Sequence record: PZ379076.1 | Source: a phage | Direction: 5' to 3' (one strand) | Length of the DNA stretch: 44,111 bases | Part shown: one piece after another, positions 4,452-41,301 of the stretch | Layout of the letters: the number at the start of each line of letters is the position of its first letter | Numbering within the stretch: position 1 is the first letter of the stretch | The notes under the pieces: model-generated | The model's database searches: none | Seen by the model: only the letters and a program-made list of their open reading frames with translations | Told to the model about the DNA's origin: nothing | Made by a program: the position numbers and the translations under genes

Positions 4452-5933
4452 ATGTTAACTATGAACGGTCAGAATCAGGGTGTTAAGACAAAACACCGGG
4501 AATGGCTGCATCACTTCGATAAATGGCAGAAGGTACGCCACGCTCTTGAAGGCGACCTTATCCGCTATCTGCGCAACGTCGGGAAGAACGAGCCTGACCA
4601 GACCTACGCAGCACAGCGACAGGAAGAATACGAGAACGGCGCTATCTGCTACAATTTCACCAAACGCACGCTGGCGGGGATGACGGGGTCAGTGATGCGC
4701 AAAGACCCTGAGCAGATTATCCCGCCTGAACTTGAGTACCTGTTGCACAACGCTGACGGTTCAGGTGTCGGGCTGTGGCAGCACGCGCAGGATACGCTGA
4801 TGGAGATTAACTCGATAGGCCGTGGCGGGTTGCTGGTGGACGCCCCGGAAACAGCCGCAGCAACGGCGGCAGAGCAGAACGCGGGATTATTAAACCCGGT
4901 AATCGCATTCTATACCGCGGAGAACATTATCAACTGGAGACTCACCCGCATCGGTTCAGTGAACCGCGTGACGATGGTTGTATTGCGTGAGGCATGGGAA
5001 TACTCGGAACCAGGCGCTGAGTTTGAAACAAAATTCGGCGAGCAATACCGCGTCCTTGACCTGATTGACGGTCGCTACCGCCAGCGCATCTACCGCTTCG
5101 ATGCCGAAGGTGGCGCACAGGATGAAGTAATCGAAATCTTCCCGGAACTCGGCGAACAGTTGCGCGGTAAAATCCCGTTCACGTTCATTGGCGCAAGCAA
5201 CAACGACGCCACTATAGACGATGCGCCTTTACTGCCGTTAGCTGAGCTAAATATAGGACACTTCAGAAATTCGGCCGATGTGGAAGAGGCCAGCTTTATA
5301 GTAGGTCAACCGACACTGTTCATTGCCCCCGGCGAGAACATGAGCATGGAGCAGTGGAAAGAAGCCAACCCACACGGCATACGCATGGGGTCGCGTTCAG
5401 GCCACAACATCGGCTCCGGCGGAAATGCGTTTCTGGTTCAGGCGGCGGAAACTAACCTCGCCAAACAGAATATGCTGGATAAAGAGAATCAGGCCATCCA
5501 GATTGGCGCGCAGCTTATCACCCCGACGCAGCAAATCACCGCGGAATCGGCCCGCCTGCAACGCGGCGCCGACACGTCAGTCATGGCAACAATAGCACGT
5601 AATGTAAGCATGGCGTATACCGATGCGTTGCGCTGGGTTGCGGGTATGCTTGGGCTTAGTGAAGATACTGAGATTGAGTTCAAGCTGAATATGGAATTCT
5701 TCCTGCAACCTATGACAGCTCAGGACCGCGCTCAGTGGATGGCGGATATTAACGCTGGCCTGCTACCCGCCACCGCTTACTATGCTGCGTTGCGCAAGGC
5801 AGGTGTGACTGACTGGACAGATGAGGACATTCAGAACGCTATTGAAGACGCACCTCTGCCGTTGGGTTCTGTTGCTCAGGTAGCGGGAGAGATTCCGCAG
5901 TCGGCGCAGCAACAGGACACCACTCAGCAGTAA
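4452..5933 (+). CDS. portal protein (putative)
   Basis: 493 aa, directly after terL and before the head morphogenesis gene; assignment by size and position. Confidence 0.65.
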   Translation: MLTMNGQNQGVKTKHREWLHHFDKWQKVRHALEGDLIRYLRNVGKNEPDQTYAAQRQEEYENGAICYNFTKRTLAGMTGSVMRKDPEQIIPPELEYLLHNADGSGVGLWQHAQDTLMEINSIGRGGLLVDAPETAAATAAEQNAGLLNPVIAFYTAENIINWRLTRIGSVNRVTMVVLREAWEYSEPGAEFETKFGEQYRVLDLIDGRYRQRIYRFDAEGGAQDEVIEIFPELGEQLRGKIPFTFIGASNNDATIDDAPLLPLAELNIGHFRNSADVEEASFIVGQPTLFIAPGENMSMEQWKEANPHGIRMGSRSGHNIGSGGNAFLVQAAETNLAKQNMLDKENQAIQIGAQLITPTQQITAESARLQRGADTSVMATIARNVSMAYTDALRWVAGMLGLSEDTEIEFKLNMEFFLQPMTAQDRAQWMADINAGLLPATAYYAALRKAGVTDWTDEDIQNAIEDAPLPLGSVAQVAGEIPQSAQQQDTTQQ

Positions 5934-5943
5934 GTTCACCTAT

Positions 5944-5966
5944 AGCCCCGAAAGGGGCTTTCTTAT
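5944..5966 (+). terminator. stem-loop / weak terminator after portal
   Basis: agcccc (5944-5949) gaaa ggggct (5954-5959) followed by TTCTTAT. Confidence 0.4.
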
Positions 5967-5969
5967 AGT

Positions 5970-7046
5970 ATGCTATTAACTTTAGCGCCACAGGGTTTAT
6001 CTATGAGCTTACTTACATCCCTAATCAGCCATCAGATATGGCTGCAACGCACCGCATCCGGTGAGGTGAAAGACCTCACGCCGTTCATTCAGGAGATAAG
6101 GGATGAAATCAAACGGCAGGTGCTGTTATTCGGTGACGACGGTCGCAGCACTGCGCGACTGAATAAACTGTTACGCGACCTGGAAGAAGCACTAACCGGT
6201 ATTACGGGTGACTGGCAAACAAAGCTAACAGACGACCTTAAGGAACTGGCGGCGTACGAGGCTGAGTGGAACGTAAAGACACTGACCGCCAACGTAGACG
6301 CGGAATTTGTTACGCCTACCGCTGAGCAGGTATGGGCCGCTGCCGAGTTTCAACCATTATCATTGAGCGACAAGCCCGTTGATTTCACCAAGCTGATGTC
6401 TGGATGGGGCGAAACGGAAGTAGCACGTCTTGTAACTGGAGTTAAGATGGGCTTTGTGCAAGGTCAAACCACACGGCAGATTGTTAAGAATGTTGTTGGC
6501 GCTGGTGGACTAGCCGACATCTCAGAACGTAACGCGACTACGGTAATCCGCACCGCGCTGTCCCACGTATCCAACGAGGCCCGTAACGAGACGTACCGCC
6601 AGAACGACGACATCATCGAGAAGTACGAGTGGGTGTCAACGCTTGACAGCCGCACCAGTACGATTTGCAGGGTCAGAGACGGGATGACGTGGGAAATTGG
6701 TAAGGGGCCGATGCCCCCAGCCCATCCGAACTGCCGGTCGTGCACGGCTCCGGTAATCAGTTCCGAGTTCGACTTCCTCGATAAAGGCGCAAAACGCGCG
6801 GCTAAAGGCGCGGAAGGTGGCACTCAGGTAAGCGCAGACACCACTTACTACGAGTTCCTTAAACAACAACCGGCGTGGTTTCAGGACCAGGCGCTCGGCC
6901 CGGTGCGAGGTAAGATTTTCCGTAACAGCGGTATATCGCCGGAAGAGTTTCGCGTAATATCTGTAGATGGTTTCGGGAATCCGCTCACGCTTAAGCAGAT
7001 GGCGGAACTCGATAAACGTGTTGCTGATTATCTGAAAGGGGAATAA
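5970..7046 (+). CDS. head morphogenesis protein (Mu F / SPP1 gp7-like)
   Basis: 358 aa; motif VSTLDSRTSTICRVRDG...HPNCRSC typical of Mu-F-like minor head proteins; follows portal. Confidence 0.8.
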   Translation: MLLTLAPQGLSMSLLTSLISHQIWLQRTASGEVKDLTPFIQEIRDEIKRQVLLFGDDGRSTARLNKLLRDLEEALTGITGDWQTKLTDDLKELAAYEAEWNVKTLTANVDAEFVTPTAEQVWAAAEFQPLSLSDKPVDFTKLMSGWGETEVARLVTGVKMGFVQGQTTRQIVKNVVGAGGLADISERNATTVIRTALSHVSNEARNETYRQNDDIIEKYEWVSTLDSRTSTICRVRDGMTWEIGKGPMPPAHPNCRSCTAPVISSEFDFLDKGAKRAAKGAEGGTQVSADTTYYEFLKQQPAWFQDQALGPVRGKIFRNSGISPEEFRVISVDGFGNPLTLKQMAELDKRVADYLKGE

Positions 7047-7507
7047 TGATGGGCTTTTTCAAAGTAACTGACGTACCGTCTCGTCGCGTAGTCCAGTACG
7101 CCCGCGTGTCTGGCTCTGGCGAGAACGTGGTATTTATTGAGGACGAAAGTGTACTCGGTACACCGGTAGATGATATGCCGTTTGCAGATAAAACCGGTAT
7201 TGCGTTGCCCGCCGCTGGTATGCTTTATGAAATTCCGTATCTGGCGGACGCTGGTGACGTGTATTTCTCTGTGCAACCGAAAGACACTGAACTTACAGAT
7301 GGCAGCGCAACTATCACTGTCGAAGTTAAGGCGGGTAAAGCACCGTATGCTCTGACCTGGTACAAAGACGGTAAGGAAGTGGTAAACGCCCCGGAAGAGG
7401 CCTTGTCTCTGACGGTTAATGCAGTTGGTGAATACTTCGTTAAAGTTACCGATGCCGGTGGCGTAGAGGCCGTCAGTAAAGCGGCGAAGGTCGCTAAACC
7501 AGAATGA
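7046..7507 (+). CDS. Ig-like domain protein (possible capsid decoration)
   Basis: 153 aa; ...ALTWYKDGKEV...VKVTDAGG segment resembles bacterial Ig-like domains. Confidence 0.55.
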   Translation: MMGFFKVTDVPSRRVVQYARVSGSGENVVFIEDESVLGTPVDDMPFADKTGIALPAAGMLYEIPYLADAGDVYFSVQPKDTELTDGSATITVEVKAGKAPYALTWYKDGKEVVNAPEEALSLTVNAVGEYFVKVTDAGGVEAVSKAAKVAKPE

Positions 7508-7510
7508 TAA

Positions 7511-7537
7511 AAGGCCCCATTAAGGGGCCTTAGTTTT
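7511..7537. terminator. bidirectional rho-independent terminator
   Basis: Stem aaggcccc (7511-7518) / ggggcctt (7524-7531); T-run follows on plus strand and A-run precedes it (T-run on minus). Confidence 0.75.
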
Positions 7538-7740
7538 CAACGGAATCTTGTGTTTAAATCCTGCTCGTGGACGACCCTCAGAACAGTGTCATAATCCCCG
7601 TATCTTCCAGGTTCAAATATATCTAATGCCCTGTAAGCAGACATTGCGTCAGGGAAAACCTGCAGAACCTTTTTAACACGGCACAAGTCACCGTCGAACT
7701 CTTCATCGAACTCTTGAACTACTTCGCAAATTGCATACAT
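7537..7740 (-). CDS. hypothetical protein (lone minus-strand gene in the head region)
   Basis: 67-aa ORF in track; AGGAGG SD 6 nt before ATG; own promoter upstream and terminator downstream. Confidence 0.6.
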   Translation of the reverse strand: MYAICEVVQEFDEEFDGDLCRVKKVLQVFPDAMSAYRALDIFEPGRYGDYDTVLRVVHEQDLNTRFR

Positions 7741-7767
7741 TTTTCACCTCCTGCTTAAGTTAACTGA

Positions 7768-7796
7768 ATAGTACCCTATTATATTGGGGTGTGCAA
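7768..7796 (-). promoter_or_regulatory. promoter, TTGCAC-N17-TACTAT family
   Basis: Minus strand reads TTGCAC (7796-7791), 17-nt spacer with AATAG-N4-CTATT palindrome, TACTAT (7773-7768). Confidence 0.5.
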
Positions 7797-7862
7797 ACTA
7801 TTTATTTAATTATTCCAGTTATTCCGCTCAATTGTAAATGTTGGAATAAACTATTCGAATAG

Positions 7863-7891
7863 TTGACTTTTCACTAAAAATATGATAAGCT
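7863..7891 (+). promoter_or_regulatory. promoter of conserved element copy 1
   Basis: TTGACT (7863-7868), 17-nt spacer, TAAGCT (7886-7891); same arrangement at 39678-39706. Confidence 0.45.
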
Positions 7892-8000
7892 CCACCTGAG
7901 CTTGTGAAGTATGAACAAGCGACCGCGGCGCGGGCAGGTAACGGAGCGGGACGTAAGTCCTGAGTGTAGTTACGCTGACGCGTTCGGAAGGGCCATACTC
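7886..8000 (+). repeat. conserved ~115-nt element, copy 1 (candidate structured RNA or leader)
   Basis: First 43 nt identical to 39701-39743, then matching with two offsetting 1-nt indels through ...TTCGGAAGGGCCATA(C/A)TCTATTG; GCTTGT/ACAAGC stem 7900-7920. Confidence 0.85.
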
Positions 8001-8070
8001 TATTGCTTGTGTAAAAAGTAACGGGTTTACTGAGATTACGCCGTTTCTATGTTTAAATGATAAGGACTAG

Positions 8071-8099
8071 CGCCCCGCTTTAAGGCGGGGCTTTACTTA
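8071..8099 (+). terminator. hairpin plus U-rich tract (terminator or attenuator) before Rz
   Basis: Stem gccccgc (8072-8078) / gcggggc (8085-8091), then TTTACTTA; Rz ATG at 8116. Confidence 0.4.
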
Positions 8100-8115
8100 T
8101 CGAGAAAGGAGAAAC

Positions 8116-8502
8116 ATGAATCTTAAAGCAACCGTCGTAGCAGGAGCATGTTTCATCATCCTGGCTTACACACACGGCATTTATCAGTACCGCAGCGGCT
8201 GGCACGAAGGCCGCGCTAATCTCGTTTCGCAGCAACAGCAAAAAGCACAGGCTGAGTTAGCTAAGAAAACACAACGGCAGCAGCAGGACGAATCTAAGGC
8301 CGCCGCCGCCGATTCCAAAGGCAAGACGAAATCAGAGGTGATTACCCGTGAAGTCGTTAAGTACATTAAAACGCCTGGTCGCAGCGGGTGCGCTTTTGAC
8401 CCTGAGCGCGTGCAGCTCAAGTCCCGCGCCGTCGCAAACGCTAATTCCATTACCGGATACGACGATGATGCAGCCTCCGTGCAAACTGGCAGCGCCAAGT
8501 AG
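8116..8502 (+). CDS. Rz-like inner-membrane spanin
   Basis: 128 aa; N-terminal hydrophobic helix, Q/K-rich coiled-coil-like middle, and an overlapping lipoprotein gene in another frame. Confidence 0.65.
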   Translation: MNLKATVVAGACFIILAYTHGIYQYRSGWHEGRANLVSQQQQKAQAELAKKTQRQQQDESKAAAADSKGKTKSEVITREVVKYIKTPGRSGCAFDPERVQLKSRAVANANSITGYDDDAASVQTGSAK

Positions 8503-8611
8503 CGATGCTGACGAGGATTTGGCTATAGACGTTCAGAACGCCGAATGCGTGCGGCAACTGCGTCTGAAAGTATTCCAGTTGCAGGATTATGTGAGGAATA
8601 TTCTGGAATAG
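8348..8611 (+). CDS. Rz1-like outer-membrane lipoprotein spanin
   Basis: GTG start with GAGGTGA SD; signal peptide with lipobox LSAC, proline-rich mature part; starts inside Rz in another frame and runs past its stop. Confidence 0.65.
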   Translation: MKSLSTLKRLVAAGALLTLSACSSSPAPSQTLIPLPDTTMMQPPCKLAAPSSDADEDLAIDVQNAECVRQLRLKVFQLQDYVRNILE

Positions 8612-8693
8612 TTGCCTTGCATGTTGGAATAATTTATTCTTGACATGTAAATCCGGGTGGCCCGGGTTCCAACGTCCAGGGGACATACTGACT

Positions 8694-9398
8694 ATGAATC
8701 GTTTTTTACGTTATCCGTTCCAGGAAGAAGCTGGGGCAGAAGATAAAGCTGGTGGCGGTGACGCTCCTAAAATGTTCACCGCTGAAGAAGTTCAGGCGCT
8801 GATTGAGAAAGAAGTTGCCGGGCTTAAGGCTAATCAGGAAGCATTGTTGGCGGAGAAGAAAGAAGCCGCTCGCAAAGCAAAAGAGGCCGAAGAAGAACGG
8901 CAGCGCGCGCACCAGGAGGCGTTAAAAGCCGCTGGTAAGATGGATGAGTTCGAAAAGACGATTCGTAGCCAGTATGACCCGGTGTTAGCCGAGAAAGACG
9001 GTCGCATCTCCAGAATGGCAGAGCGTATCCTCGGCAGCGAACGTAAAGCGGTGCTAGGCTCTTTCGCGGGTGACTTTATTACCCCAGAAGCAGTGGACAT
9101 TCTTGCGCCGTTCGTTAAGACTGAGTTCGAAGGCGATGATGTGGTTACTAAGTTTGTTGGCGCAGACGGCAACGTAATCACGACTGACCCGGAACAGTTC
9201 CGCAAATACTTGCGAGAACACAAAGCGTTTTCACATTTGATTAAAGCAAATGCAGCTTCCGGCGGCGGGGCTTCCGGTAGCAAAGGCGGCGGGGCCGCAC
9301 CAGCGTTTAAAGACATGAGTGAAGCGGAGCGTATCGCTCTGTACGAATCGAACCCTGCCGAATTTGAACGGCAACTTAAAGCCCTGAGGAAAAAATAA
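8694..9398 (+). CDS. scaffolding protein (putative)
   Basis: ATG 8694 inside track ORF 8640-9398; charged helical composition; immediately upstream of the capsid gene. Confidence 0.55.
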   Translation: MNRFLRYPFQEEAGAEDKAGGGDAPKMFTAEEVQALIEKEVAGLKANQEALLAEKKEAARKAKEAEEERQRAHQEALKAAGKMDEFEKTIRSQYDPVLAEKDGRISRMAERILGSERKAVLGSFAGDFITPEAVDILAPFVKTEFEGDDVVTKFVGADGNVITTDPEQFRKYLREHKAFSHLIKANAASGGGASGSKGGGAAPAFKDMSEAERIALYESNPAEFERQLKALRKK

Positions 9399-10447
9399 TG
9401 GCAATTACTACTATCGGCGACATCGTAACTGGTAAAGAATCGGTAATCCTGTCCTACATGACAGAGGACCCGGTAGAGAAAACCGCGTTCTTCCAGTCCG
9501 GTATCCTTACCTCGACTCCGTATGCCGCCGCTATCGCAAACGGCCCGTCCAACAAAGCGGTCCTGCCGTACTGGAAAGCTATTGATACCTCTATCGAGCC
9601 GAACTACTCGAACGACGTATATCAGGACGTCGCCACCCCGCGTAACGTGCAAACCGGTGAGATGGATGTTCGCGTAGCTTACCTGAACGAAGGTTTTGGT
9701 CAGGCTGACCTGACGGTAGAACTGACCAGCCAGAATCCGCTGCAATCCGTGGCTTCCCGTCTGGATAACTTCTGGCAGCGTCAGGCACAACGCCGTCTTA
9801 TTGCTACCGCGCTCGGTCTGTACAATGATAACGTAGCGGCTACCGATGCGTACCACGAGCAGAACGACATGGTTATTGACGTGTCCGCTACTCTGGGCTT
9901 CGACTCCGGCGCGTTCATCGATGCTACCCAGACTATGGGCGATGCGCTGATGGGTAACGGTGGTGAAGTGCTTGGCGCTATCGCGATGCACAGCTTCGTT
10001 TATGCGCAGGCGCGTAAGCAGCAGCTTATCGACTTCATTCGCGACGCGGACAACAACACCATGTTCGCCACCTACCAGGGCTATCGTGTGATTGTTGACG
10101 ACAGCATGACCGTAGTCGGAACTGGCAACAGCCGTAAGTTCATCTCCATCATCTTCGGCAACGGTGCTATCGGTTACGGCGAAGGTTCTCCGTCAAACCC
10201 GCTGGAATACGAGCGCGAAGCGTCTCGCGGTAACGGTGGTGGTGTCGAAACCCTGTGGACCCGTAAGACCTGGTTGCTGCATCCGTTTGGTTACAGTTTC
10301 ACCAGCACTGTAATCACCGGCAACGGCACCGAGACTATCGCCCGCTCTGCTTCCTGGCAGGACCTGGCGAACGCTTCCAACTGGAACCGTGTGGTTGACC
10401 GTAAGCATGTACCGATTGCCTTCCTGGTAACTGGTGTCGGGGCTTAA
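9398..10447 (+). CDS. major capsid protein (HK97-fold type, putative)
   Basis: 349 aa after scaffold gene, followed by a strong terminator; assignment from size and synteny. Confidence 0.7.
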   Translation: MAITTIGDIVTGKESVILSYMTEDPVEKTAFFQSGILTSTPYAAAIANGPSNKAVLPYWKAIDTSIEPNYSNDVYQDVATPRNVQTGEMDVRVAYLNEGFGQADLTVELTSQNPLQSVASRLDNFWQRQAQRRLIATALGLYNDNVAATDAYHEQNDMVIDVSATLGFDSGAFIDATQTMGDALMGNGGEVLGAIAMHSFVYAQARKQQLIDFIRDADNNTMFATYQGYRVIVDDSMTVVGTGNSRKFISIIFGNGAIGYGEGSPSNPLEYEREASRGNGGGVETLWTRKTWLLHPFGYSFTSTVITGNGTETIARSASWQDLANASNWNRVVDRKHVPIAFLVTGVGA

Positions 10448-14851: not shown

Positions 14852-14856
14852 AACTA

Positions 14857-14880
14857 AGGCCCCTTTCGGGGCCTTTTTCT
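14857..14880. terminator. bidirectional rho-independent terminator
   Basis: Stem aggcccc (14857-14863) / ggggcct (14868-14874), loop tttc, T-run after it; sits between convergent genes. Confidence 0.75.
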
Positions 14881-15434
14881 TACAAACCTAATTTTAAAGC
14901 AATGTCTATAACGTTCGATTTAACGTCACCCGGTATGATGTAGGTGTCGTAATCTTTTACACCACTAACATCGTACAGATAGCCACGGCTATCGCAGATG
15001 AACGTATAGCCGTCACGATGGAGGCGGACGATTCGCACGTCATGCCCCGCGGCGACGATAGGGGCAACTTCACTGGCGAATCCACCATCGGACACTACAA
15101 AAACTTCGTCGCCGTCAGGCAAGTTTTCAGCAAGATACTTACCGAAATAATCATCGCCGAATACCGGTTTAATGAATTGCTCAGAAATGGCAATCATTAA
15201 CCGGCGGCGGGACAACCCATTAAGAAAACCCTCGGGTTTTTCTTTCCGCGCCCGGTCGTCGTAGCCGTCGAGAAATTCGTGGTAAGCATCCTGGCCTAAC
15301 GCTGCCAAAGCAATATTGAACATTGGGTTCTTGAAACTGGTAGTTCCTTTCGCAAAGCCCATTTCTACCAGCGCCATAGCAAGCGTGTCTTTCCCGCAAC
15401 CCGCAGGGCCATTAAGAATAATTACCTTAGCCAT
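14880..15434 (-). CDS. P-loop nucleotide kinase (dNMP-kinase-like)
   Basis: 184 aa; Walker A GPAGCGKDT, a GKDT-type P-loop as in T4 gp1-type dNMP kinases. Confidence 0.65.
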   Translation of the reverse strand: MAKVIILNGPAGCGKDTLAMALVEMGFAKGTTSFKNPMFNIALAALGQDAYHEFLDGYDDRARKEKPEGFLNGLSRRRLMIAISEQFIKPVFGDDYFGKYLAENLPDGDEVFVVSDGGFASEVAPIVAAGHDVRIVRLHRDGYTFICDSRGYLYDVSGVKDYDTYIIPGDVKSNVIDIALKLGL

Positions 15435-15922
15435 TATTTATCGCTCCCGTGTGGTTTTAAGTGTGTAGAGTTCCCGTTACAGTCGTATTCGGTAACTGCG
15501 TGTGCGGTTATGCCGAGGTCACGGAAATGCTTTATTACCGCTGGGGAGTCGTCGAACGCACACAAGATTCTTTCCAGTCCGAAAGCACGCAACACCTCTT
15601 CTTTAATTACGATGTCTTTTCTGTTGTCGTGTTTGCTGCGCATGATTAGCGTGTCAAACCTAACGTTATTCTCTCGTAACCATTCGCGAGTCTCCTCCTC
15701 AGCGTCATCACTTCGCCCGGTAAGGATAATTATAGTAAGTCCGGAATGCCACAGTACGCTACACAAATGGATATTGTCGTATATCGGAGCGTCATCTTTG
15801 CAGGCCATGTTAAATGGCTTCCACGCCCACGTTTCTCCGTAGTTATCTTTTGGTAACAGGTGTAAGCGATGGGTACCGTCGGCCAATGTCCCGTCTAAAT
15901 CGAAAATTACAATATCTTTCAT
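15434..15922 (-). CDS. HAD-superfamily phosphatase (nucleotidase or 3'-phosphatase-like)
   Basis: 162 aa; N-terminal IFDLDGTLADG is HAD motif I. Confidence 0.7.
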   Translation of the reverse strand: MKDIVIFDLDGTLADGTHRLHLLPKDNYGETWAWKPFNMACKDDAPIYDNIHLCSVLWHSGLTIIILTGRSDDAEEETREWLRENNVRFDTLIMRSKHDNRKDIVIKEEVLRAFGLERILCAFDDSPAVIKHFRDLGITAHAVTEYDCNGNSTHLKPHGSDK

Positions 15923-17049
15923 CCCAGCATCTCCGGTGAAATAGTTAAACGTGCGACCTCGCCATATTCGGCGCTATAAGTAATTACATTTGCACTGCGG
16001 CCCGACATCCATCCGCCGCGAGAGGCGTAGGCGTCTTTAGCCGCTAAGGTGCGGTGTTGCTCAACAATCATGTTACGGCTTTCTACAATCTTCTGGTGGT
16101 GCAGATGGCCTACGTGGGCGTAGCTGTAAACACTCTCGCCGAACGCTTTACGGAACTTGGCAATCATAACCGGTTCGATAGCGTCGAATCGTGCTTTATG
16201 CCCGTGATGGAAGAACAGCGTCGTTTTGCCGTGTTGCACCATCTTGTAAACATCCGGCGACGTATCGACGAACACGCGCGGCTCATTGTCGTACAGCGTA
16301 CTGAACATCTCAGCCAACCAAATCATACCCGATTCGTCGTGATTCCCTTGCACGATAAGCAAGCGAACATTTTTATGCTTAACCAACGCCATATCAACGA
16401 CACGGCGGACCATACGAATCATGTAACGGACCAGTTTCTGATAGCGCGTGTCAGCGTCAAGGACATGACCGCTTGCGGGCGTAACGGCATCAAGACTATC
16501 GAAGTGCGCTAAGTCGCCAAGAAGATTGATAACCCCAGTACCGGCATCCGGTGCTTTCTGGAATGCTGCATCGAACCAACGAGAGAACAGGTCTTCCGCA
16601 ATCTTCATGTCCCAGTCGTCGCCACTCTCGTCGGCCCAGGCCAGCATACCGAGATGGAAATCGGATACAGTGTAAAGATTGAGCAGCTTATCGTCCCGTT
16701 TGGCACGAACGGCTTTAACAGGTGCAACGGGCGTAATCTCCGATTTCATGCCTTCGATCACGGCTTTCATCAATTCAACCTGACGTTCGGCGTCAGTGTC
16801 GGTCTTAACCCATTGCAACTTAGTGTTGCCGAACTCATCCACCAGTGACGACGTACCTTTAATCTTATAGCCGTCCGGGACAAGGTGGCTAACATCACGT
16901 CCGTGACCTACACCTTTCTTAGCCAGCTTCGCTTTACGGATACGAATTACGCGGTCTGAGATGCCGTATTTACGGGCGATGTCTACATTCTTCATTCCGG
17001 CGTTCAATTCTTCCTGTAACTGTTCGTCGGTTATTTTCTTCCGGGCCAT
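15919..17049 (-). CDS. calcineurin-like metallophosphoesterase with N-terminal HTH-like segment
   Basis: 376 aa; metal-binding motifs VSDFHLG, GDLAHFD, GNHDE, GHLHH in canonical order; N-terminal ~45 aa basic helix-turn-helix-like. Confidence 0.7.
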   Translation of the reverse strand: MARKKITDEQLQEELNAGMKNVDIARKYGISDRVIRIRKAKLAKKGVGHGRDVSHLVPDGYKIKGTSSLVDEFGNTKLQWVKTDTDAERQVELMKAVIEGMKSEITPVAPVKAVRAKRDDKLLNLYTVSDFHLGMLAWADESGDDWDMKIAEDLFSRWFDAAFQKAPDAGTGVINLLGDLAHFDSLDAVTPASGHVLDADTRYQKLVRYMIRMVRRVVDMALVKHKNVRLLIVQGNHDESGMIWLAEMFSTLYDNEPRVFVDTSPDVYKMVQHGKTTLFFHHGHKARFDAIEPVMIAKFRKAFGESVYSYAHVGHLHHQKIVESRNMIVEQHRTLAAKDAYASRGGWMSGRSANVITYSAEYGEVARLTISPEMLG

Positions 17050-17087
17050 GCTTACTTCCTCGTGTTTAGGATTTGTCTTATAGTAGC

Positions 17088-17279
17088 CTACTTCTCTTTC
17101 ACGTTCGAGTTACAAGCCCAGATTAAAATGAATACCCACGGCAACAGAACCCACCCGAGAAATAAGTTAGCCATGAATATCGCTAGCTTTGCTTTATGGT
17201 TTCGCATATGGGCCACAAAAAACGGGATAAAATAAACGCCTACAACAATAATTAAAAAGAACATAGCGATACCGGTCAT
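17088..17279 (-). CDS. small two-helix membrane protein (superinfection-immunity-like, putative)
   Basis: ATG 17279 with AGGAG SD (track ORF opens at 17306); two hydrophobic helices around HMRNHKAKLAIFMANLFLGW. Confidence 0.4.
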   Translation of the reverse strand: MTGIAMFFLIIVVGVYFIPFFVAHMRNHKAKLAIFMANLFLGWVLLPWVFILIWACNSNVKEK

Positions 17280-17321
17280 AACATAACTCCTGATTTGAGA
17301 TAACATCGTTGGTGTAAGTGA

Positions 17322-17350
17322 ATAGTACGCTATTATATCAGGGTGTGCAA
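17322..17350 (-). promoter_or_regulatory. promoter, TTGCAC-N17-TACTAT family (drives the minus-strand cassette)
   Basis: TTGCAC (17350-17345), 17-nt spacer with AATAG-N4-CTATT, TACTAT (17327-17322) on minus strand. Confidence 0.5.
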
Positions 17351-17457
17351 GTAGTATGTTAGAATAATTTTGCGCCTAGTGTCGCACACGAAAAGCGGGT
17401 GGTTCCCGTCTGGCGCATTTCCTTTAACCAGTAACCTCTTAACCAAAGGATTAAAGA

Positions 17458-17874
17458 ATGAAACTTTCTGATTTTTATTACGAAGCTGAAGCTGAAAAGG
17501 GTGCACGTATGCCGATACCATTAAAAGACGGTACCGATTCCGGGGAATGGCTTAATGTTGTTTCTCCTGAGGCAGACGTTGCCGTTAAGGCTATGCGCGC
17601 GTTCACCCTTGCATACCGGGCAGTGTTAGGGAAATTAAAACCGCTTCGTGATAAGTGCGAAGAGATGAAAGATTTCTCTGAATACAACCTGAAGATGGAA
17701 GACGCGGCGACGGACCTTAACCGTCAGTTAGCGGTTGAATTGGTTAACGGGTGGAGCCTTGACGACGAATTCAATAAAGAGAATCTGAACACACTCCTGA
17801 CGCAATATAAACGACTCGCGGAACTTGTTGTTGTGTTTCATAACGAACAACTGCACCAGCTACAGGAAAAGTAG
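17458..17874 (+). CDS. tail assembly chaperone (putative, G-like)
   Basis: 138 aa immediately upstream of the tape measure gene; AAAGGA SD. Confidence 0.5.
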   Translation: MKLSDFYYEAEAEKGARMPIPLKDGTDSGEWLNVVSPEADVAVKAMRAFTLAYRAVLGKLKPLRDKCEEMKDFSEYNLKMEDAATDLNRQLAVELVNGWSLDDEFNKENLNTLLTQYKRLAELVVVFHNEQLHQLQEK

Positions 17875-36192: not shown

Positions 36193-36408
36193 ATGCAACC
36201 ATCTGAACTAGGTATCCGTGTAGAACAACGCCGTAAAGAACTCGGCATCTCCCAGCGCCGTTTGGCGGCCCTGACCGGCGTTTCCCAGGGCGCGATTAAC
36301 CAACTGGCACTTGGAGTAACTCAGGACGTCCGCCCGGCAACGCTGTTCAAACTGGCGGAAGTTCTGGAAGTAGACGCCAAGTGGCTGGCGTTAGGTGAAG
36401 GGGCTTAA
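36193..36408 (+). CDS. HTH transcriptional regulator (XRE / Cro-CI-like)
   Basis: 71 aa; ISQRRLAALTGVSQGAINQL is a helix-turn-helix signature; AAGGAG SD; only plus-strand gene in the minus-strand region. Confidence 0.7.
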   Translation: MQPSELGIRVEQRRKELGISQRRLAALTGVSQGAINQLALGVTQDVRPATLFKLAEVLEVDAKWLALGEGA

Positions 36409-39677: not shown

Positions 39678-39706
39678 TTGACTTTTACTAAGAAATGTGC
39701 TAAGCT
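39678..39706 (+). promoter_or_regulatory. promoter of conserved element copy 2
   Basis: TTGACT (39678-39683), 17-nt spacer, TAAGCT (39701-39706). Confidence 0.45.
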
Positions 39707-39815
39707 CCACCTGAGCTTGTGAAGTATGAACAAGCGACCGCGGTGCGGCAGGAAACGGAGCGGTGCGTCAGCACTGAGTGTAGTGTCGCTGCCTGCATTC
39801 GGAAGGGCCATAATC
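39701..39815 (+). repeat. conserved ~115-nt element, copy 2
   Basis: Matches 7886-8000; stem-loop GGUGC-gtca-GCACU at 39762-39775 replaces GGGAC-gtaa-GUCCU of copy 1. Confidence 0.85.
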
Positions 39816-39907
39816 TATTGTAAATCCCGTCTAAATAACCCAAGTCACTAATAATTAAAAGTTTCTATAGTTGCCGTAAGCAAGGTAGAGAGTACTTCAC
39901 TCCGCTG

Positions 39908-39927
39908 GGGTGGGCTAAAGCCCACCC
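39908..39927 (+). other. GC-rich hairpin downstream of copy 2
   Basis: gggtgggc (39908-39915) taaa gcccaccc (39920-39927); weak T-rich tract ~13 nt later. Confidence 0.4.
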
Positions 39928-39986
39928 GCTGCGTTGCGTACTCTTTAAAGAAACAAAAGAATCACAACGGCAACGTAACTATTATC

Positions 39987-41242: not shown

Positions 41243-41271
41243 TTGCACACTAAGATAGAATAGGCTACTAT
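41243..41271 (+). promoter_or_regulatory. promoter, TTGCAC-N17-TACTAT family
   Basis: TTGCAC (41243-41248), 17-nt spacer with AATAG-N4-CTATT, TACTAT (41266-41271); aaacgagaggagaga leader. Confidence 0.5.
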
Positions 41272-41301
41272 TCATTTACACAAACGAGAGGAGAGACAGA
41301 G

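What the first reader, a model, noticed from the sequence alone, without database searches (positions are those of the whole stretch)
7537..7796. Single-gene moron between head genes and spanins
A 67-aa minus-strand gene with its own promoter (7768-7796), strong SD and bidirectional terminator (7511-7537) is wedged between plus-strand late genes. Independent transcription units like this often encode host-interaction or exclusion functions.
Basis: inference. Interest (0 to 1): 0.35.

Follow-up and report, generated by a model that had tools for sequence, protein, structure and literature searches.

The report
Swappable accessory gene cassette in phage
The 67-codon backward-facing gene is real and is one of at least a dozen unrelated genes that related phages plug into this same gap between two late operons, each with the same promoter and terminator, but what its small acidic protein does is unknown.

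Summary
The window is a Kagunavirus-like E. coli siphophage, about 96% identical to BASEL phages Bas70-76.

- **Gene:** ORF 7537-7740(-) encodes a 67-aa acidic protein (pI 4.5). It has an AGGAGG Shine-Dalgarno sequence. The AlphaFold2 model is confident (pLDDT 90).
- **Family:** Only 22 cluster representatives were found among 1.84 billion proteins.
- **Terminator:** The terminator is the phage's standard AAGGCCCC-N4-GGGGCCTT hairpin.
- **Slot:** In 43 related loci the Hoc-to-Rz gap is empty in 9. Elsewhere it holds at least 12 unrelated minus-strand genes, including two DNA methyltransferases, an HNH nuclease, a lipoprotein and small unknowns. Their start codons mostly sit 375-377 nt from Rz.
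- **Mobility:** The same promoter-gene-terminator unit sits at a different slot (portal|MuF) in Salmonella phage VSt10.
- **Recent spread:** The cassette is 98-99% identical between phages whose flanking genes are 89-94% identical.

Function is unresolved. No Pfam, NCBIfam, PADLOC, PDB or fold match was significant. My best guess is a protein-binding modulator of the host or of a host defence.

The finding is a new member of a known kind and of moderate interest. Next to the cassette lies a more unusual item: an ultraconserved, duplicated, promoter-proximal structured RNA.

The parts
7508..7537 (.). Left boundary of the cassette. It is a conserved convergent-transcription terminator, TGATAAAAGGCCCC-loop-GGGGCCTTAGTTTT, with its stem at 7511-7531.
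   Evidence: Searches give the fold (-16 kcal/mol on both strands). One search shows the same sequence in all occupied-slot relatives whatever gene follows. One search finds identical hairpins at 14856 and 27414.
7537..7740 (-). Cassette ORF of 67 aa. The product is acidic (pI 4.5, net charge -6.4) with no signal peptide or transmembrane segment. The predicted fold is beta-hairpin, helix, helix, strand, helix.
   Evidence: pLDDT 90; 22 family representatives; dN 0.32 with dS saturated against VSt10.
7745..7753 (-). Shine-Dalgarno sequence AGGAGGTGA. The AGGAGG core is at 7748-7753, 7 nt upstream of the ATG.
   Evidence: An equivalent GGAG-type SD appears upstream of most other cassettes in the alignment.
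7767..7796 (-). Class-B phage promoter/operator. It consists of -35 TTGCAC (7796-7791), a 17-nt spacer and -10 TACTAT (7773-7768). It overlaps the palindrome AATAGGGTACTATT (7767-7780).
   Evidence: One search finds 4 exact copies against 0 expected. Searches place the palindrome and the downstream genes. One search shows it conserved upstream of every cassette type and absent from empty-slot phages. One search shows the same palindrome upstream of the VSt10 homolog. PMC9825357 reports the motif tgAATAGTa-ccTATTat-T seven times in a related phage.
7809..7838 (-). Second, consensus-type promoter-like site, TTTACA-18-TGnAATAAT. It could also read into the cassette. It lies in the block conserved even in empty-slot phages.
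   Evidence: (10 of 12 matches plus TG).
7811..8115 (+). Right flank. It is not part of the cassette but is its conserved recombination arm and neighbour. It is an ultraconserved noncoding block containing a 16-bp perfect palindrome (7849-7864), a plus-strand promoter (TTGACT 7863-7868, TGnTAAGCT 7883-7891), a structured leader RNA of about 200 nt and a terminator (8072-8091) just before Rz.

Best explanation
**Shown.** The 67-aa gene is an accessory, horizontally exchanged cassette. It occupies a multi-allelic slot in the gap between two long plus-strand late operons of a virulent Kagunavirus. The first operon ends at the Hoc terminator (7511-7531). The second starts at the promoter at 7863. 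A cassette is one ORF bracketed by two standard phage parts. These are a class-B promoter/operator with SD on one side and the AAGGCCCC...GGGGCCTT terminator on the other.

**Inferred: how cassettes move.** Cassettes are most likely swapped between co-infecting phages by homologous recombination. The left arm would be the Hoc 3' end plus the terminator. The right arm would be the promoter block plus the 305-nt ultraconserved element. The same parts allow the unit to sit in other slots.

**Inferred: expression.** The gene is transcribed by host RNA polymerase from the class-B promoter, antisense to the late genes. It is co-regulated with three other class-B units through the AATAG-N4-CTATT operator. 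The candidate binder is the Cro/CI-type HTH protein encoded at 36193-36408. Expression timing was not measured.

**Inferred: function (about 0.35).** The product is a small, compactly folded, strongly acidic cytoplasmic protein. It probably acts by binding and modulating a host protein. A host defence or a host-takeover target during lytic growth is the most likely kind of target. An enzymatic or structural role is unlikely.
For: **Slot variability**
- The gap length ranges from 342 to 1311 nt, 9 loci are empty, and there are at least 12 gene families.
- The families include N6_N4 and D12 DNA methyltransferases, an HNH/endonuclease VII-like protein, a lipoprotein and a half-clamp-like protein (annotations).
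- Both junctions are sharp and conserved.

**Shared regulatory parts**
- The promoter family is statistically clear.
- The terminator family is repeated in the genome.

**Mobility**
- The same promoter-ORF-terminator unit is at the portal|MuF junction in VSt10. Its flanks are nearly identical while the ORF is about 65-70% identical.
- Family members also occur after DNA polymerase A, after the endolysin, next to the primase, and between portal and MuF in Klebsiella phage Geezett.
- The cassette is 98.3-99.3% identical among phages whose Hoc is 88.7-93.3% and Rz 92-94% identical.

**Real protein**
- The AlphaFold2 model has pLDDT 90.
- There are full-length homologs down to 33% identity, with invariant D16, V22, A35 and a C-terminal FR.
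- Every family member is acidic, pI 4.2-5.0.
- dN is 0.32 with dS saturated against VSt10.

**Lytic-cycle role**
- There is no copy in 5,426 E. coli genomes or in 72,556 plasmids.
Against: **Function**
- Nothing identifies a function. There is no Pfam, NCBIfam or PADLOC hit.
- There is no PDB sequence or profile hit.

**Anti-restriction is unlikely**
- Bas70-76 all carry the gene yet are reported as highly sensitive to restriction-modification systems and variably sensitive to Old (PMC11990801). A broad anti-restriction role is therefore unlikely.

**Untested steps**
- Promoter activity and timing are untested. One class-B promoter (41243-41272) heads a cluster that runs into the lysis genes, so 'early' is not established.
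- The GC deviation is modest: 44.1% against 50.4%, at the 10th percentile of windows.
- Recombination at the flanks is inferred from the pattern, not observed.
Confidence: 0.62

Rival explanations
1. The protein acts against competing phages or regulates the phage's own development. For example, it could modulate the regulator that binds the AATAG-N4-CTATT operators, or the adjacent late promoter/leader RNA. On this reading it does not target host defence.
For: The gene sits directly beside the regulatory hub at 7811-8115 and shares its operator motif. Other alleles of the slot include a lipoprotein and small membrane proteins of the kind that often mediate superinfection exclusion. In other phages, homologs sit among early or replication genes.
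Against: Nine relatives lack any cassette, and the others carry unrelated genes, with no change to the hub sequence. The protein therefore cannot be a required regulator. It has no DNA-binding motif or HTH hit, and no signal peptide or transmembrane segment for envelope-level exclusion.
Confidence: 0.17
2. The cassette is a selfish or neutral passenger. It persists because the conserved flanks make it easy to copy between phages, and it gives the phage no benefit.
For: The cassette is near-identical (98-99%) across diverged backbones, which suggests recent spread. An HNH endonuclease allele occupies the same slot, so homing-type mobility occurs there. Empty-slot phages are common, 9 of 43.
Against: The protein is under long-term purifying selection. 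Full-length homologs run down to 33% identity, the core is conserved with an invariant C-terminal FR, and dN is far below dS against VSt10. The family is maintained in at least five genomic contexts and in phages of three host genera. The protein has no nuclease or recombinase features of its own.
Confidence: 0.12
3. The ORF is a conserved structural or assembly component of the head module.
For: Its position is among the head genes, next to the Hoc-like decoration protein.
Against: The ORF is on the opposite strand. It is absent from most relatives and replaced by methyltransferases, nucleases and other genes. Its homologs lie in replication or early clusters elsewhere.
Confidence: 0.02
4. 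The ORF is not translated. The functional unit is an antisense or noncoding transcript that insulates the two late operons.
For: Empty-slot phages still keep the upstream promoter-like site 7838-7809 reading into a terminator. Convergent-terminator architecture is present.
Against: The SD is strong. The reading frame is preserved in all 33 phage hits and 22 metagenomic representatives. The fold prediction is confident, and the substitution pattern is dominated by synonymous change over long distances.
Confidence: 0.03

Closest known systems
Morons of lambdoid and HK97-like phages (the definition of Juhala, Hendrix and colleagues, cited from my own knowledge)
   Same: It is a single extra gene with its own promoter and terminator, inserted between two genes that are adjacent in close relatives. 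It lies in the late region, has a somewhat lower G+C content, and is variably present.
   Different: The host is a virulent phage and no prophage copy exists, so lysogenic expression does not apply. The promoter and terminator are copies of the phage's own repeated regulatory parts rather than imported signals. The site is multi-allelic, with at least 12 alternative genes and an empty state, rather than a one-off insertion.
Hyperplastic or accessory regions of virulent phages that collect small anti-defence and host-takeover genes, such as the T-even and T7-group accessory genes (from my own knowledge)
   Same: Small, fast-turnover genes of mostly unknown function are exchanged between relatives. 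DNA methyltransferases and homing-type HNH nucleases are among the alleles.
   Different: Here there is one gene per slot, on the opposite strand to the surrounding operons. Each allele has precisely conserved promoter/SD and terminator junctions.
Integron gene cassettes (an analogy only)
   Same: There is a fixed site, one ORF per cassette, and many unrelated alleles with conserved boundaries.
   Different: There is no integrase and there are no attC/attI sites. Each cassette carries its own promoter copy. Exchange is presumably by general or phage-encoded homologous recombination.
[not shown]
   Different: All scores are below the usual significance level. Foldseek against the PDB found no match with E <= 0.001. 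The profile comparison with E. coli ClpS gives 0.8% probability. No aca-type neighbour was seen.
PHROG family phrog_27256 (function unknown)
   Same: The match is full-length, residues 2-67 against profile positions 4-65 of 65.
   Different: The match is weak (E 1.1e-3, 20 bits), and the family itself has no assigned function.

Membership tests
Moron (classical definition) | The gene is present in some genomes and absent at the same junction in close relatives. | tested here: met
   Nine loci have an empty Hoc|Rz gap of 342-346 nt, against 611 nt here. Only 5 of 43 loci carry this gene.
Moron (classical definition) | The gene has its own promoter. | tested here: met
   This rests on sequence evidence only. 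TTGCAC-17-TACTAT at 7796-7768 is one of 4 exact copies of a 30-nt motif (0 expected), each upstream of an SD plus start codon. It is conserved upstream of all cassette types and absent from empty-slot phages. No transcript mapping is available.
Moron (classical definition) | The gene has its own terminator. | tested here: met
   An 8-bp GC-rich hairpin starts 5 nt after the stop codon and is followed by UUUUAU. It is conserved with every cassette. It travels with the gene to the VSt10 slot.
Moron (classical definition) | Base composition differs from the surrounding genome. | tested here: inconclusive
   G+C is 44.1% against 50.4% for the window and 51-54% for neighbouring genes. That is only the 10th percentile of 204-nt windows.
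Moron (classical definition) | The gene is expressed from a prophage and benefits the lysogen. | tested here: not met
   No match was found in 5,426 complete E. coli genomes or 72,556 plasmids. No integrase is annotated in the near-identical Bas76 genome. The genus is described as lytic (PMC9825357, PMC11990801).
Anti-restriction DNA mimics (Ocr/ArdA-like) | The protein protects the phage from restriction-modification systems. | tested here: not met
   This is indirect. All Bas70-76 phages encode the protein yet are reported as highly sensitive to RM systems (PMC11990801). There is no sequence or fold similarity.
ClpS-like adaptor fold | The protein shows sequence or profile homology to ClpS and its N-degron pocket. 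| tested here: not met
   [not shown]
Anti-CRISPR proteins (AcrIF9, AcrIC8, AcrIC9) | The protein shows significant fold or sequence similarity and an association with an aca regulator. | tested here: not met
   [not shown]
phrog_27256 | The protein gives a significant profile match. | tested here: inconclusive
   E is 1.1e-3 at 20 bits, over the full length.

The most novel reading that the evidence does not exclude
Guernseyvirinae phages run a standardised cassette system. One ORF is bracketed by a fixed promoter/operator and a fixed terminator. It is exchangeable among at least a dozen gene families and movable between at least two slots. On this reading the system serves as the group's main reservoir of counter-defence and host-modulation genes. 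The 67-aa acidic protein would then be a new inhibitor of a host immunity or takeover target, with a fold not yet seen in solved structures.
Probability: 0.3. Interest if true: 0.6.

Novelty: new member of a known kind. Interest (0 to 1): 0.38.

Why it matters
The slot is a ready-made natural experiment. Near-isogenic virulent phages differ mainly in which single gene they carry at one defined position. The alleles already include two anti-restriction-type methyltransferases.

Seven phages carrying this allele (Bas70-76) are in the public, phenotyped BASEL collection. The function of the 67-aa protein and of its sister cassettes can therefore be tested directly by deletion or swap. The conserved flanks also give a practical landing pad for engineering these small therapeutic-type siphophages.

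The gene itself is otherwise an ordinary phage accessory gene.

Tried and rejected
**Searches for the protein's function that found nothing**
- Pfam, NCBIfam and PADLOC gave no hit.
- PDB sequence and profile searches gave only chance-level matches.
- Foldseek against the PDB gave no match with E <= 0.001.
- BFVD returned only uncharacterised phage proteins.
- The afdb50 library was unavailable.

**Other searches that led nowhere**
- Rfam and tRNA scans of the region found nothing relevant.
- There are no prophage or plasmid copies.
- I consulted the Kagunavirus time-course transcriptome paper (PMC12645636) for expression timing. That phage carries a different cassette, and the text gives no per-gene class for the slot.
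- Literature searches for a prior description of this variable slot or of the conserved RNA found none.

**Leads kept only as weak hints**
- In Klebsiella phage Kpn2-P2 the gene next to the homolog matches Pfam Acb1 (anti-CBASS). The match is below threshold (19.3 against 27 bits), so I treat it as a hint and not as evidence.

**Readings rejected**
- I rejected the 36-aa ORF annotated at 7911-8021 in relatives. It is frameshifted, truncated or lacks a start codon in 6 variants.
- My first spaced promoter pattern was mis-spaced and gave no hits.

Full report
**1. What the window is**

The 1.9-kb region around the finding is 94-96% identical to E. coli siphophages of the genus Kagunavirus (Guernseyvirinae). 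The closest relatives include the BASEL phages Bas70-76. Gene order here is as follows:

- portal, 4452-5933
- MuF-like head morphogenesis protein, 5970-7046
- Hoc-like Ig decoration protein, 7046-7507
- the minus-strand ORF, 7537-7740
- 375 nt with no conserved ORF
- spanins Rz 8116-8502 and Rz1 8348-8611
- scaffold, 8640-9398
- major capsid protein, 9398-10447

**2.

The hairpin folds at about -16 kcal/mol on either strand, z -2.4 and -3.2.

The claimed promoter, TTGCAC-17-TACTAT at 7796-7768, matches the sigma-70 consensus at only 7 of 12 positions. The generic scan missed it and instead flagged TTTACA-18-AATAAT at 7838-7809.

- The 30-nt pattern TTGCAC-N10-AATAG-NN-TACTATT occurs four times in the window, at 7767, 17321, 39987 and 41243. 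None is expected by chance.
- Each copy lies about 30-45 nt upstream of an SD and start codon.
- The embedded palindrome AATAG-N4-CTATT occurs seven times against 0.02 expected.
- The palindrome defines two promoter classes. In class A it sits in the spacer of TTGACA...TATAGT promoters ahead of replication genes. In class B it overlaps the -10 element, as it does here.

A genome paper on a related phage reported the same motif (tgAATAGTa-ccTATTat-T, seven copies) as predicted 'phage promoters' (PMC9825357). A Cro/CI-type HTH protein is encoded at 36193-36408, beside two class-A sites, and is the obvious candidate binder. That assignment is an inference.

**3. The slot is multi-allelic**

I fetched 39 IMG/VR loci through the Hoc-like protein and five GenBank loci. 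I then measured the Hoc-to-Rz gap in the 43 loci that contain both genes.

- Nine loci have a gap of 342-346 nt with no ORF. This is the empty state.
- Five loci, including the window, carry the 67-aa gene.
- The remaining loci carry other minus-strand genes, falling into at least 12 unrelated families. They are listed below:
  - a 173-aa half-sliding-clamp-like protein (phrog_3007), annotated variously as 'sliding clamp' or 'RusA-like'
  - an N6_N4 DNA methyltransferase
  - a D12 (Dam-type) methyltransferase
  - an HNH/endonuclease VII-like protein
  - a 114-aa lipoprotein
  - a 70-aa membrane protein
  - several small proteins of unknown function

In most alleles the start codon lies 375-377 nt from the Rz start. 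Alignments show two sharp, conserved junctions.

- On the left is TGATAAAAGGCCCC-loop-GGGGCCTTAGTTTTA.
- On the right is the class-B promoter and 5'-UTR block.

Empty-slot phages lack the class-B block and use a different terminator, GAAGCCCCGAAAGGGGCTTTTT. It is joined directly to ATTATTCCAG at about window position 7811. The unit that comes and goes is therefore promoter plus ORF plus terminator, which matches the classical description of a moron.

**4. The unit is mobile and has spread recently**

By tblastn, only 33 of 50,697 phage records encode a homolog. In Salmonella Jerseyvirus VSt10 the homolog (63% aa identity) sits at a different junction, between portal and MuF. There it is bracketed by the same palindrome-bearing promoter and the same terminator. 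The flanks are nearly identical while the ORF is about 65-70% identical.

Other family members lie in four further contexts:

- between portal and MuF in Klebsiella phage Geezett
- next to a primase gene in phage Kpn2-P2
- after the endolysin in Cornellvirus Shemara and a related contig
- directly after DNA polymerase A in a metagenomic contig

Among Kagunaviruses the 303-nt cassette is 98.3-99.3% identical, whereas the adjacent Hoc is 88.7-93.3% and Rz 92-94% identical. The cassette is therefore younger than the backbones that carry it. No copy exists in 5,426 complete E. coli genomes or in 72,556 plasmids. The family therefore belongs to lytic phages, not prophages.

**5. Why this position**

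The AAGGCCCC-N4-GGGGCCTT hairpin also marks the other plus-to-minus strand switches, at 14856 and 27414. Immediately right of the cassette lies a plus-strand promoter, TTGACT 7863-7868 with TGnTAAGCT at 7883-7891, that heads the Rz-scaffold-capsid-tail genes.

The slot is therefore the gap between the end of one long plus-strand operon and the start of the next. An antisense, self-terminated insert there should not be polar on late transcription. This is inference from layout. The ultraconserved right flank and the conserved Hoc 3' end plus terminator provide homology arms for exchange, which is also inference.

**6. The protein**

- **Fold:** AlphaFold2 on a 16-sequence alignment gives pLDDT 90 and pTM 0.72. 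The model has a long beta-hairpin (2-12, 17-29), helices at 32-41 and 44-47, a strand at 53-58 and a short helix.
- **Family size:** An exhaustive profile search of 1.84 billion representatives finds only 22 matches. About 19 are credible members of 63-75 aa, or members fused or extended at the N-terminus.
- **Conservation:** Invariant or nearly invariant positions include C5, V7, D16, V22, L26, Q27, F29, A35, R55, V57 and the C-terminal F66-R67.
- **Charge:** Every member is acidic, with pI 4.2-5.0 and net charge -4 to -9.
- **Selection:** dN is 0.32 with dS saturated against VSt10, which indicates purifying selection.

No sequence or fold search gives a significant match to anything characterised. 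All Bas70-76 phages carry the gene, yet they are reported as highly RM-sensitive and variably Old-sensitive (PMC11990801). A broad anti-restriction role is therefore unlikely.

I commit, at roughly one chance in three, to a stoichiometric binder or inhibitor of a host protein, either a defence or a takeover target. The main alternatives are self-regulation or inter-phage competition, and a neutral passenger.

**7. Verdict on the finding**

The regulatory parts are the phage's own, and lysogenic expression does not apply. The gene is a new member of a known kind, namely phage accessory or moron cassettes. The multi-allelic, standard-parts architecture is tidy and useful but not categorically new.

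**8. Noticed beside it: a conserved structured RNA**

The 305 nt between the cassette and Rz (7811-8115) are 95-99% identical in 179 GenBank phages of both Kagunavirus and Jerseyvirus. Median identity in 36 IMG/VR loci is 97.7%. The flanking coding genes have medians of 88-95%.

The 36-aa ORF annotated there in some records is frameshifted, truncated or lacks a start codon in six variants. Rfam has no match.

The block contains the following elements:

- a perfect 16-bp palindrome overlapping the -35 of the plus-strand promoter
- a transcript of about 200 nt
- an intrinsic terminator 18 nt before the Rz start codon

A paralog of the promoter plus the first 115-125 nt or so lies at 39678-39820, 87.6% identical. 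It heads the other long plus-strand operon. On 19 distinct variants of both copies, the consensus fold is 98.9% paired. Four pairs show compensatory double changes in 24 cells, against 0-2 cells when the partners are slid. None of 500 shuffles reaches the observed covariation score.

Two promoter-proximal paralogous structured RNAs, each followed by a terminator hairpin and an operon (the copy-2 hairpin lacks a U-tract), recall the logic of lambda nutL/nutR, HK022 putL/putR, or lambda pR'-6S-tR'. That comparison is from my own knowledge and is untested.

Noticed in passing
window 7811-8115 and paralog at window 39678-39930: This is an ultraconserved noncoding element, 95-99% identical in 179 Kagunavirus and Jerseyvirus genomes and more conserved than the flanking genes. 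It comprises a strong plus-strand promoter, a structured leader of about 200 nt and a terminator immediately before Rz. A second copy of the promoter plus the 5' domain of about 115-125 nt heads the other long plus-strand operon. Four base pairs show compensatory changes, and Rfam has no match. The layout resembles nut/put or pR'-6S-tR' antitermination logic, or it may be an sRNA. It is unannotated or mis-annotated in GenBank records.
   Followed up: partly
window 7767, 17321, 29743, 33299, 36105, 40003, 41259: A seven-site regulon is defined by the palindrome AATAG-N4-CTATT (0.02 expected), embedded in two promoter classes. In class A it lies in the spacer of TTGACA...TATAGT promoters. In class B it overlaps the -10 of TTGCAC...TACTAT promoters. 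The likely binder is the Cro/CI-type HTH_3 protein at 36193-36408. A related-phage paper had attributed the motif to a phage RNA polymerase. No RNA polymerase is annotated in the near-identical Bas76 genome.
   Followed up: partly
window 7849-7864: This is a perfect 16-bp palindrome, AACTATTCGAATAGTT. It is built from the same half-site in everted orientation and overlaps the -35 of the plus-strand promoter. It lies between two back-to-back promoters, is unique in the window, and is conserved in most relatives, including empty-slot phages.
   Followed up: partly
window 7911-8021: A 36-aa ORF is annotated as a hypothetical protein in Bas70-76 and other records. It is truncated to 9 or 17 aa, frameshifted, or lacks its start codon in six natural variants, while the nucleotide sequence stays about 98% conserved. 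It is probably a mis-annotation of the RNA element.
   Followed up: yes
window 5934-5969; L006 2400-2770; L008 2495-3218: A second cassette slot lies between portal and MuF. It is empty here, with only the hairpin ATAGCCCCGAAAGGGGCTTT at 5942-5961. In Salmonella phage VSt10 it holds the 67-aa homolog with the same promoter and terminator. In Klebsiella phage Geezett it holds the homolog plus a 167-aa gene.
   Followed up: partly
window 14856-17521: A minus-strand island sits inside the tail module. It encodes an SbcD-like DNA repair exonuclease and small ORFs. It is bounded by the same AAGGCCCC-N4-GGGGCCTT terminator (14856-14875) and driven by a class-B promoter (17321-17350). It looks like a larger version of the same insert architecture.
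   Followed up: no
L005 (phage K1H, GU196278) between Hoc and Rz: The slot is annotated as empty. It nevertheless contains an SD (GGAGGTGG) followed by a 33-aa hydrophobic ORF (MMVAISFVLLVNLGLFVWAVSG...) behind the class-B promoter. This is probably an unannotated small membrane peptide cassette.
   Followed up: no
L007 2024-2485 (Klebsiella phage vB_Kpn2-P2): The gene immediately upstream of the 67-aa homolog is annotated 'RNA ligase'. It gives a sub-threshold match to Pfam Acb1, the anti-CBASS family (E 1e-3, 19.3 against 27 bits). This is a weak hint that the family can sit beside counter-defence genes.
   Followed up: no
L030/L059 copy 1 versus window 39678-39820: One phage's copy-1 leader carries the sequence variant typical of copy 2. 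This suggests gene conversion between the two paralogous RNA elements.
   Followed up: no
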